In this document: positions 11,786 to 14,700 of the stretch, one piece after another | Position numbering within the stretch: the first letter of the stretch is position 1 | How the letters are laid out: each line of letters starts with the position of its first letter | From: Selaginella moellendorffii | Taxonomy: Eukaryota; Plantae; Lycopodiophyta | NCBI RefSeq assembly: GCF_000143415.4 | Contig: NW_003314277.1 | Location: 1,516,493 to 1,580,492, forward strand | Direction of reading: 5' to 3' | DNA length: 64,000 nt | The notes under the pieces: model-generated | Told to the model about the DNA's origin: nothing | What the model saw: the letters and a program-made list of their open reading frames with translations, nothing else | Databases searched by the model: none | Program-made: the position numbers and the translations under genes

Positions 11786-14700
11786 TCAATACCTGATAGT
11801 TTTGAACATTGAAGAACGCGTCTCGTCCGTTGCTGAAAGCATATGTGGGGCAGAACGGTAGTGCTTGTATTTGTCCAGCTTGAGTTCTCTCTGAATCAGT
11901 AACAGTAGACGCTTGTGAGTGCTTTGCTTCTTCGAAAGTACTTTGTGAAACGCTGCCCAGCCTAGCCACTCCATTTCTTTTGCTCGGCTCAATACTTTCC
12001 CAGATCCCACGGCTTGCATTCTTTGCCGAATCAATCGAAAGGTATACCTGGAAAAAGACTCGGTCACTGTTATCTTCAGGAATACAACTCACCTCGTCGT
12101 TCTTCGAATTGCCTGGAAAAGGAATAGTGGATTATTGACGTTGAATGGCCGTAAGCACTTCAAATACGCATGAAACTTCATCGCACAAAGAAGAAACGCT
12201 TGGTATGCGTTCAAGGATATCGTTGATGCTGAGTTGATCTCGGAGTCGTAAAATACCGGATGACATTTCGGCCTCATGAAATGAAACATCTTCACAACCA
12301 GATTTAGTCCTTGTTTGTGGCACCTCATGACCGTCAGACTAGATCTGATGTGTTCGCCGCAGTATCTGTAAAAACATGTCAGAACATACAAGAAACGTGA
12401 TCGCTTTCAAACGAACCTCGTATAGTCGGCTTGGATTTCAAGAGTGTGACAGTTGATGAGCAAACCACTCCATCGCATGAAACAAGCCCCATCTTCAGTC
12501 GAATACATGGACTTCACGTTCTTCCCACTAATGTCAGTATCAAAGCTTGTAGATGTTTTGTCCTCGTTGACACAGCATCCGAACTGTTCGAGGTCCCTGT
12601 GCATTACGTTCAAGAAAAGTGTTGCCTTTGCTTCAGACGTAGATATAAATAAGGAGTCGTCCACCAGCCGCATAAGAAGAGCCTCGTCTGTGGTCTCTTC
12701 CTTCACCAGGCCGTCCTGAGGTTTCCCTTGTAAAGCTGGTAGTATGTGGCGCAAGTCCAGGTAACCATAGTATAACGCGCATAGGAAAGACGAAAGTACG
12801 CTGCCTTGAGGAATACCGGTAAATTGTTGAAAGAAGTTGTGGCCGAGGTGCAAGATATTGGATTTTATGTGTTCTTTGAGAACTCTCAATAGCTGCACTC
12901 TTGACACATTAGAGTGATAGGCCTGTGGTAACGATTTGTTAGTAATACAACGCCCTGTAATAACCAAAGAACAAACCTGATCAGTAAATATTGTTTCGGA
13001 GCGCTTAGTTGTCAAGTTTCGAACAAAGTTGTAGACCCTCCCATCACTCCCCGCAGTAGCACAGGCTTTCTCGTGAAGCACTCGGACAGATGCCAGCCTG
13101 CTACGGACGGAAGTAAACCGCAAAACAACGTACTTCTCCTCGTGCAAGAACTTGTCAACAATGCTGTAAAGCCGTTCCTGATCGATAGTGTCGAACGCAT
13201 TAGCGACGTCACAAACAGCCAGAAAAATTTTCGTTGGTTCTCGTTGTCTGAAACGTCGGATGAAAGGAAGCAGCTTCAAGTAGATGTCGTTGTAGCCGAA
13301 TACAGACGCGCCAAGATCACCTTGATGACTTTCTTGCTCAAGCTTCAGACACTGATGAGCATCCCCGAGAGCAGAATTGACGGACTTGAACGAATAAACT
13401 GTCTGAATTTTCCCATCACCCCTGGAACCGGAACTTAGATCGGATGATCTCCTTCGATGGCTGACATGAACAACCCGTTTTCCTTTCCTGGACTTCGGAA
13501 AGGTGGAGTCTTTACGCTTGACCACGTAGATTGATGCCGAGCCGAGATTAGCTATTGGTCTGACGCTCGTTTTTTTCGGAAGAAGCCGGACTTTAGAGAA
13601 TCCCAGTGCTCGGTTCCTGAGGGCTTTGTCAGCGTCCACACGTTTGTAGACAGTCTTTGATAGATCACGAACAGCCGCAGACTGAATCTGCGACCATATA
13701 GGCTTCCGGTAAAACACCACATTTTGCCGTTGATTCTCGCTCTCTGTAACGTAGAAGTGAACACGTATCAGAGGAACCAATACGTTTGTAAAAATCCAGT
13801 ATAGCCAGTCTTCTACCATTTGACTTCTGAAATATCCAACTCCTTCGAGTTCCTTGATTGTATCCCGCTTGCTCAGAAAAGTAAAGTCGGAAACCTTAAG
13901 CTTCTGCAACAGCTGAACCGAGGAAAATGCTTCGTACCTCCGAAGTCCAACAAAGCGTGCATACTGCTTTCGAAGAGCTCTCCAGTTTTTGGGAGACCCG
14001 AGCATTTCCTGGGGTATGAGCCTCCTGGAAGCAGCCCACAAGAATGCCACAACTTGATGGTTGGTCGAGGTCATGGCCAGCAGCTCTGATAAAGGCCTCT
14101 CATTTTTTGGTTTGGTGCTACCTTTCCTTGGATCAGGCACTGACTTGCATGAACATGAAGAATCTCCACGAGATTCCTCTTGAGTAACATATCCATCATT
14201 CAGAAACATATCTTTAAAGTAAAGATTGCCATCGATTTCCTGCACGCTTATCCTCAGAACATACGAAATATTCTGGCAGCAATACCTTCCGTGGCAAAAT
14301 TGGCACAGGACAGTGCCGTTTCAAAAGATGGCCACACTGAAACTTTTTAGCGCGACAGATTAGTCTCTTCAGAAGCCGCAAAATAGAAGGTGGGTAGCTG
14401 TGAAAGATATTTTCAGAAACTTAACGCACAAAGCTCATCGACAAGTACCTCTTTTCGGTTGTTTTGCTTCCAAATATTGACTCGAACAACCACGCAGCTC
14501 CCCCGTCCTTACTAGCTGCTGATGTAAAAAGAATATCTGCCTTGGTCAAGGATTTACCAGAAACAAATTCAAATTACTAAAGGATACGAGTTTTTGGCAG
14601 TCCCCCCTTCCTGTTAAAACAAGTGCTATAAAACATCTGTGCACGATCAATCTGTCTATGACAGGCTGCAGGCACACTTTCCAAGCGCTCCACCACCTGA

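What the first reader, a model, noticed from the sequence alone, without database searches (positions are those of the whole stretch)
14537..14587. Minor-spliceosome (U12) intron in telomerase reverse transcriptase, only 51 nt
Seen: GTATCCTTT donor, TCCTTGAC branch site close to the AG, no pyrimidine tract, and splicing keeps the frame (KTHILF..IFG). Known: these are the diagnostic U12 signals, and U12 introns are often rate-limiting. Inference: telomerase output here depends on the minor spliceosome. The intron is also unusually short for its class.
Basis: partly seen in the sequence, partly recalled or inferred. Interest (0 to 1): 0.7.

Follow-up and report, generated by a model that had tools for sequence, protein, structure and literature searches.

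The report
Ancient U12 intron in plant telomerase
A 51-base intron in the spikemoss telomerase (TERT) gene is cut out at exactly these sites and carries the signals of the rare minor spliceosome at a position it shares with moss and poplar, so plant telomerase likely needs this second splicing machine, and incomplete removal of the same intron may explain a known truncated telomerase form in Arabidopsis.

Summary
Confirmed. Window 14587-14537 (- strand) is intron 6 of Selaginella moellendorffii TERT: GTATCCTTT donor, TCCTTGAC branch motif, CAG acceptor, phase 1. The exact junction stands in assembled contigs of 7 of 8 public runs. Retention stops the protein after 279 of 1110 residues. The same intron has a perfect U12 donor in Sphagnum and Populus loci, a worn one in Phaseolus and a U2 donor in an alga-like locus, so it is at least as old as land plants. 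51 nt is the median intron length of this gene, and shorter minor introns are published. Rate-limiting splicing is unshown: no contig retains this intron, while U2 introns 5, 8 and 9 are retained. New lead: the published Arabidopsis isoform TERT V(I8) retains intron 6 and stops in it; published primers place that intron at this position with a U12-like branch motif. Ten paper searches found no text naming a U12 intron in TERT, but bulk catalogues that I could not read probably list it. The scan's earlier notes do not hold it.

The parts
14537..14587 (-). TERT intron 6, GT-AG U12-type, 51 nt, phase 1 (splits the His277 codon C|AT)
   Evidence: Sequence; joint in 7 of 8 runs; exon count and His277
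14579..14587 (-). U12-type 5' splice site GTATCCTTT, preceded by C at -1
   Evidence: same nine letters in Populus and Sphagnum loci
14545..14552 (-). U12-type branch motif TCCTTGAC; presumed branch A at 14546, base 42 of 51, 9 nt before the end
   Evidence: the branch nucleotide itself is inferred, not mapped
14537..14539 (-). 3' splice site CAG (used)
   Evidence: Joint ends at 14536 with no ambiguity
14541..14542 (-). Upstream AG 5 nt after the branch A, not used in any contig; use would shift the frame (285 aa product)
14577..14579 (-). In-frame TAG met on retention (...KT-R-I-L-stop; 279 aa)
14588..14696 (-). TERT exon 6
   Evidence: Joints, exon table
14449..14536 (-). TERT exon 7
   Evidence: Joints, exon table
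12977..14239 (-). TERT exon 9, the large exon with the telomerase RNA-binding domain; anchors the intron numbering to Arabidopsis
   Evidence: Pfam PF12009; exon table; T motif in Arabidopsis exon 9 (PMC3223050)
11731..15690 (-). TERT coding region, 1110 aa, 12 introns of 45-61 nt (the 12th falls in the second-last codon)
   Evidence: the start codon is taken from GenBank model ACH81295

Best explanation
This is intron 6 of Selaginella TERT, spliced at 14587/14537, with U12-type donor and branch signals that are kept at the same codon in moss and poplar; it is therefore likely removed by the minor (U11/U12/U4atac/U6atac) spliceosome and likely inherited from the ancestor of land plants, and it shrank to 51 nt along with every other intron of this gene. 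Shown: splice sites, signals, position in relatives, truncation on retention. Inferred from established U12 biochemistry: U11 reads GTATCCTT, U12 pairs with TCCTTGAC and bulges the A, and the acceptor is set by distance from the branch site, which would explain why the AG 5 nt after the A is skipped for the one at 9 nt. Full-length telomerase would thus need minor splicing as a standing requirement, not as a demonstrated regulator. A small retained fraction would give an N-terminal fragment or be degraded; the Arabidopsis V(I8) transcript, a few percent of full-length, is plausibly that fraction (about even odds).
For: Signals and 1 in 2,000,000 shuffle result. Junction in 7 of 8 runs. Of 27 loci fetched, 11 land-plant loci hold the whole intron at the same codon and phase: 5 with GTATCCTTT (2 Populus, 279 nt; 3 Sphagnum, 172-173 nt) and 6 Phaseolus with GTATCCAC (475-479 nt); all 11 have a CC(T/G)T(A/C)A(C/T) motif 10-14 nt before the AG. 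Three gene models (2 Striga, 1 Rumex) read R-I-L at this site, the translation of C|GTATCCTT. S. moellendorffii has U11, U12 and U6atac genes and 157 minor introns (PMC11347168 supplement rows). Gene median intron length 51. Retention stops after 3 codons in Selaginella and Sphagnum, 26 in Populus, 9-12 in Phaseolus.
Against: No intronIC score and no minor-spliceosome mutant data. Branch-to-acceptor spacing (9 nt from the presumed A) is below the 11-13 nt optimum (PMC3584512 passage). The same supplement lists 0 copies in the column that I take to be U4atac for Selaginella (header not seen). Phaseolus has a worn donor, and L027 has a U2 donor at this position, so the class is not fixed everywhere and the ancestral class before land plants is open. 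Only three land-plant genera were seen at DNA level with both intron ends; no monocot, fern, gymnosperm or Arabidopsis donor.
Confidence: 0.85

Rival explanations
1. The intron is a regulated, rate-limiting switch: minor-spliceosome activity sets the ratio of full-length TERT to a truncated N-terminal form (V(I8)-like), tying telomerase to proliferation in plants.
For: U12 introns are spliced 2-5 times more slowly and a rate-limiting role has been proposed (PMC3584512). Arabidopsis V(I8) retains intron 6, stops in it and binds AtPOT1a (PMC3223050). Retention truncates in all lineages seen. The intron has kept its class between moss, lycophyte and poplar.
Against: No contig retains it in 7 covering runs, while U2 intron 8 is retained in 3 of 8 runs and introns 5 and 9 in one; weak, as contigs drop rare forms. 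V(I8) is only a few percent of full-length and its authors allow that it has no telomeric role. V(I8) also involves intron 8 and a poly(A) site, so U12 slowness need not be the cause. Long conservation is the norm for U12 introns, and a pan-eukaryote survey argues for largely neutral evolution (PMC10639083).
Confidence: 0.2
2. The intron keeps U12-looking signals but is removed, wholly or in part, by the major spliceosome (a hybrid GT-AG intron).
For: GT-AG ends suit both machines; spacing is below the optimum; U4atac apparently not found in the Selaginella genome; relatives show drift (Phaseolus GTATCCAC with A at -1 and 75-80% pyrimidines; L027 GTGAGC).
Against: In Selaginella the donor is 8 of 8 and the branch motif intact, with C at -1 and 45% pyrimidines; both signals persist in distant plants, which needs selection by a machine that reads them.
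Confidence: 0.05
3. Chance motifs in an ordinary short intron, or a wrong intron call.
For: The donor 9-mer alone is expected 1.3 times in the window by chance.
Against: Exact junction in 7 of 8 runs; joint probability about 2e-6; same signals at the same codon in other plants.
Confidence: 0.01

Closest known systems
GT-AG U12-type (minor) introns of plants and animals (Turunen et al., PMC3584512; Moyer et al., PMC7367187; passages seen)
   Same: Donor, branch motif close to the acceptor, weak pyrimidine tract, non-zero phase, pyrimidine at -1, position kept over long evolutionary distance.
   Different: 51 nt long; 9 nt from branch A to acceptor against an optimum of 11-13; host gene TERT is not named as a U12 host in any text I could search.
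Arabidopsis TERT V(I8) isoform (Rossignol et al. 2007, not held; described in Fojtova et al. 2011, PMC3223050: introduction, passages and primer table seen, figure not seen)
   Same: Retains intron 6 and stops in it, giving an N-terminal fragment. Exon 9 holds the T motif in both species. The exon 5/6 and 7/8 junction primers bracket the P-x-N-H-I-L site in a Raphanus TERT. The reverse complement of primer 6iR ends TTCCTTATGATATACA, like the Populus intron end CCTTAATGATATTTAG.
   Different: That paper never mentions U12 (0 hits). V(I8) also involves intron 8 and its own poly(A) site. The Arabidopsis donor was not seen. No retained form was seen in Selaginella.
Conserved plant U12 introns in single genes, e.g. 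CBP20 intron 4 (PMC5932401) and QQT1 (PMC5853960); search listing and abstract start only
   Same: One U12 intron among U2 introns, kept across land plants, in an information-processing gene.
   Different: Those were tested by experiment; this one is not.
Very short minor introns of Blastocystis (Larue and Roy 2023, PMC10639083, passage seen)
   Same: Minor introns shrunk with a compact genome.
   Different: Blastocystis averages under 42 nt, so 51 nt is no record; the Selaginella intron keeps canonical signals and phase.

Membership tests
U12-type (minor) intron | 5' splice site RTATCCTT | tested here: met
   GTATCCTTT, 8 of 8; the other 11 introns of the gene match 3-5 of 8
U12-type (minor) intron | Branch motif TCCTTRAY (consensus recalled) near the 3' end | tested here: met
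   TCCTTGAC at 14552-14545; absent from the other 11 introns
U12-type (minor) intron | Short branch-to-acceptor distance, optimum 11-13 nt | tested here: inconclusive
   9 nt from the presumed A; 10-14 nt in relatives; optimum from PMC3584512, where the point of measurement is not given in the passage seen
U12-type (minor) intron | No distinct polypyrimidine tract | tested here: met
   45% C+T in the last 20 nt, against 55-85% in 9 of the 11 other introns (45% and 30% in the remaining two)
U12-type (minor) intron | Really spliced at these sites | tested here: met
   Joint in 7 of 8 runs, unambiguous
U12-type (minor) intron | Signals conserved at the orthologous position | tested here: met
   Perfect donor in 5 of 11 land-plant loci with the whole intron (Populus, Sphagnum), worn donor in 6 of 11 (Phaseolus)
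U12-type (minor) intron | Host encodes a minor spliceosome | not testable with these tools
   No genome held; none of these snRNAs in the window; published rows list U11 x2, U12 x2, U6atac x10 for the species
U12-type (minor) intron | intronIC score above 90 / dependence on U11, U12, U6atac | not testable with these tools
   No intronIC, no mutant data
Rate-limiting (regulatory) minor intron | Higher retention than neighbouring U2 introns, varying with tissue or state | tested here: inconclusive
   No retaining contig in 7 covering runs while U2 introns 5, 8, 9 are retained in some; contigs cannot measure retention
Telomerase reverse transcriptase (plant TERT) | Telomerase RNA-binding domain plus RT domain | tested here: met
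   PF12009 E 9.6e-35 and PF00078 E 4.2e-09; 97% identity to the named S. moellendorffii TERT model

The most novel reading that the evidence does not exclude
Land-plant telomerase has been gated by one minor-spliceosome intron since the moss/vascular-plant split. Its donor reads into a stop, so retention yields an N-terminal fragment without RNA-binding or RT domains. The POT1a-binding Arabidopsis isoform TERT V(I8) is the product of this retention, which makes minor-spliceosome activity an unrecognised control on plant telomerase. Minor-spliceosome mutants should then gain V(I8) and lose telomere length, and lineages with a worn or converted intron (Phaseolus) should have escaped the control.
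Probability: 0.25. Interest if true: 0.68.

Novelty: new member of a known kind. Interest (0 to 1): 0.4.

Why it matters
It adds TERT to the plant genes that likely depend on the minor spliceosome and offers a simple, testable origin for the one studied plant TERT isoform (V(I8)): retention of a U12 intron. Existing RNA-seq of Arabidopsis and maize minor-spliceosome mutants can test this at once. It also warns that automatic TERT models often break at this intron (29 of 120 angiosperm models were broken or missing there, many of them isoforms of one Citrus species). The small size is ordinary for this gene and does not matter in itself.

Tried and rejected
No whole genome is held, so no genome-wide U12 length distribution for Selaginella could be made; the baseline is the 12 introns of this gene. 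The look-up of sequencing runs listed no holder on record as RNA ('no RNA holder listed'); only contigs were available, so retention could not be measured. Of the 27 loci, 7 do not cover the intron (L003, L004, L006, L008, L009, L015, L022), L014 holds only the acceptor end, and 6 are a frameshifted Populus copy (L018-L021, L024, L025; 3 of the 6 were read at the acceptor, 1 at the deleted donor); these 14 were left out of the donor count, as were L026 (no intron) and L027 (U2 donor). No Arabidopsis DNA or V(I8) protein was found. The taxon of L027 could not be fixed: best hits were weak and mostly unnamed, one a haptophyte. The ortholog loop and the acceptor pattern failed through script errors and were redone. 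Supplement searches for TERT/telomerase/AT5G16850 gave 0 hits in PMC2426677, PMC10639083, PMC7367187, PMC5853960 and (telomerase, AT5G16850) PMC11347168, but I did not see that any of these files is a full gene-level U12 list. The U12 list of PMC3371709 could not be read, and Zhu and Brendel 2003, Rossignol 2007, Sykorova and Fajkus 2009 and two further papers asked for by recalled ids were not held; any of these may already record the intron. Primer 6iF ends in TAG and has no U12 branch motif; I took it at first for the intron end, but 6iR fits the Populus intron end better. Earlier scan notes: nothing on this gene.

Full report
Observation. On the minus strand, 14587-14537 reads GTATCCTTT ... 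TCCTTGAC CAAGGCAG, 51 nt. It lies in a TERT gene: the large downstream frame hits Pfam Telomerase_RBD and RVT_1 and is 97% identical to the Selaginella moellendorffii TERT model. Splicing gives GLPKT-H-ILF...IFG, as in the RefSeq and GenBank models. I laid 8 of the 15 runs that hold the stretch, one from each listed study. The joint 14536/14588 appears without ambiguity in 4 of 4 runs and 3 of 4; run X13 has no cover there. The runs are contigs and only guessed to be RNA, but they skip the neighbouring introns as well.

Chance. The donor 9-mer alone occurs twice in the window against 1.3 expected. The combination is what counts: with GT..AG fixed and the interior shuffled, donor and branch motif fell in place together in 1 of 2,000,000 shuffles (product of single rates 2e-6). 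None of the other 11 introns of the gene has more than 5 of 8 donor letters or the branch motif.

Anatomy. The joints give 12 introns and a 1110-residue protein from the start codon of the GenBank model (that script left the 12th intron, in the second-last codon, unspliced, which changes only the final residue). The U12-type intron is the sixth, phase 1, splitting His277. The presumed branch A is base 42 of 51, with 9 nt to the end; an AG 5 nt after the A is not used in any contig. This fits distance-based acceptor choice, though 9 nt is under the 11-13 nt optimum (PMC3584512, passages). The length is a multiple of three, but retention meets TAG after R-I-L and leaves 279 residues, with no RNA-binding or RT domain.

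Size. The 12 introns are 45-61 nt, median 51. Across species, median minor and major intron lengths correlate (rho 0.903) and Blastocystis minor introns average under 42 nt (PMC10639083, passages). The intron is short against its own orthologs (172-479 nt), but it is simply the normal size for this gene.

Conservation. One metagenome scan gave 27 TERT loci. Eleven land-plant loci hold the whole intron, all at the same codon and phase. Two Populus loci (279 nt) and three Sphagnum loci (172-173 nt) have GTATCCTTT and a CCTTAAT or CCTTCAC motif 10-12 nt before the AG. Six Phaseolus loci of two species (475-479 nt) have a worn donor, GTATCCAC, with A at -1, and TTCCTTCAC or TTCCGTCAC 14 nt before the AG. 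Genus labels come from 93-100% protein identity. L014 shows only the acceptor end, with TTCCTTAGC. L027, a 68% GC, intron-rich, alga-like locus of unfixed taxon, has a 330-nt intron at the very same codon (LPAK-H-ML) with a U2 donor GTGAGC and a pyrimidine tract. L026 has no intron there. The other 13 loci do not cover the donor or are a broken Populus copy. Among 120 angiosperm proteins (the listed best 120 of 274), the junction residue is His in 84, Asn in 7 (Phaseolus, Vigna, cucurbits) and broken or missing in 29; many of the 29 are isoforms of one Citrus species, and not all need be due to this intron. Models from two Striga species and Rumex read R-I-L at the site, which is what C|GTATCCTT translates to; this is indirect evidence of the U12 donor in those plants. 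The simplest reading is a U12 intron in the land-plant ancestor. Whether the older ancestral state was U12 or U2 is open.

Machinery. Supplement rows of PMC11347168 list 157 minor introns, U11 x2, U12 x2 and U6atac x10 for S. moellendorffii, and a zero in the column that I infer to be U4atac. I saw only those rows and the search listing of that paper.

Is it rate-limiting? U12 introns are reported as 2-5 times slower, but nothing here shows it for this one. Depth arithmetic shows no contig inside intron 6 in X1-X4, and the bin is empty in the other four runs. By contrast U2 intron 8 is retained in contigs of X1, X2 and X6, intron 9 in X1, and X1 has excess depth over intron 5.

The Arabidopsis link. 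Fojtova et al. 2011 (PMC3223050; introduction, passages and primer table seen, figure and one supplement file not seen) describe TERT V(I8) as retaining introns, with its stop codon in intron 6, at a few percent of full-length, and cite its binding to AtPOT1a. The paper has 0 hits for U12. Three points place Arabidopsis intron 6 at our position. Exon 9 holds the T motif in both species. The exon 5/6 and exon 7/8 junction primers (translated by hand) match L-T-D-F and C-L-Y-H-S-L-L-K-S in a Raphanus TERT, and P-P-N-H-I-L lies between them. The reverse complement of the intron-6 primer 6iR ends TTCCTTATGATATACA, close to the Populus intron end CCTTAATGATATTTAG (10 of 16 ungapped), which would put a U12-like branch motif 10 nt before the acceptor. 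The Arabidopsis donor was not seen, and the primer's place in the intron is inferred. V(I8) also involves intron 8 and a poly(A) site, so slow U12 splicing is a plausible, unproven cause: about 0.9 for same position, 0.75 for U12-type, 0.5 for cause.

Mechanism. Shown: splice sites, signals, conservation, truncation on retention. Inferred from established U12 biochemistry: recognition by U11/U12 and catalysis with U6atac. Hence full-length TERT likely needs the minor spliceosome (0.85 for the whole reading). A regulated switch is possible but unsupported (0.2).

Novelty. Ten full-text searches and passage searches in plant telomerase papers (PMC7916837, PMC3223050, PMC7658794, PMC8745574; 0 hits for U12 in each) found no statement that TERT holds a U12 intron; PMC9887622 names TERT only as an outgroup. 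But Selaginella is in the species sets of two bulk surveys, the RefSeq model uses this intron, and the gene-level U12 lists and key telomerase papers could not be read. It is probably catalogued without comment. Verdict: a real, conserved, new-to-me member of a known class; interest 0.4, resting on the testable V(I8) link, not on size.

Noticed in passing
window 13744-13816 (-): A 73-nt GT-AG intron inside exon 9 is spliced in contigs of 3 of the 4 runs laid there (depth 5.7, 13.1, 4.1, roughly a quarter to a half of neighbouring contigs). It removes the core of the T motif and shifts the frame (547 aa): a candidate inactivating isoform, perhaps a better regulatory lead than the U12 intron.
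   Followed up: partly
window 14240-14285 (-): U2 intron 8 is retained in contigs of 3 of 8 runs (X1, X2, X6), giving a 366-aa product. Arabidopsis V(I8) is named for intron 8.
   Followed up: partly
window 15090-15154 (-): Intron 3 uses a GC donor (61 nt) in 3 of 4 runs; run X2 shows a GT donor 4 nt upstream (65 nt, frameshift, 173 aa).
   Followed up: partly
window 11723-11792 (-) and 9827-11740 (-): A 12th intron falls in the second-last TERT codon; the spliced stop (11731) lies 5 nt before the first ATG of a PPR gene on the same strand, and contigs of X2-X4 run across both genes. Read-through or overlapping transcripts; a contig does not prove one transcript.
   Followed up: no
L001:5146-5624, L010:2482-2956: Phaseolus TERT intron 6 has a worn U12 donor (GTATCCAC, A at -1), in P. 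vulgaris also a worn branch motif, and 75-80% pyrimidines: possibly a U12-to-U2 conversion under way. Vigna and cucurbit proteins share the His-to-Asn change that puts A at -1.
   Followed up: partly
L027:6232-6561: Same intron position in an alga-like TERT, but U2-type; the position is older than land plants if this locus is an alga.
   Followed up: partly
L018-L025: A frameshifted second TERT copy in Populus-like contigs; in L018 a deletion has removed most of exon 6 and the U12 donor while the branch motif remains.
   Followed up: partly
window 19349-19509 (-); 49613-49684 (+): A U1 snRNA gene and a tRNA gene.
   Followed up: no
window about 16800-19100 (+): Short frames that look like exons of a Twinkle-type primase-helicase gene (likeness recalled, not tested).
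   Followed up: no
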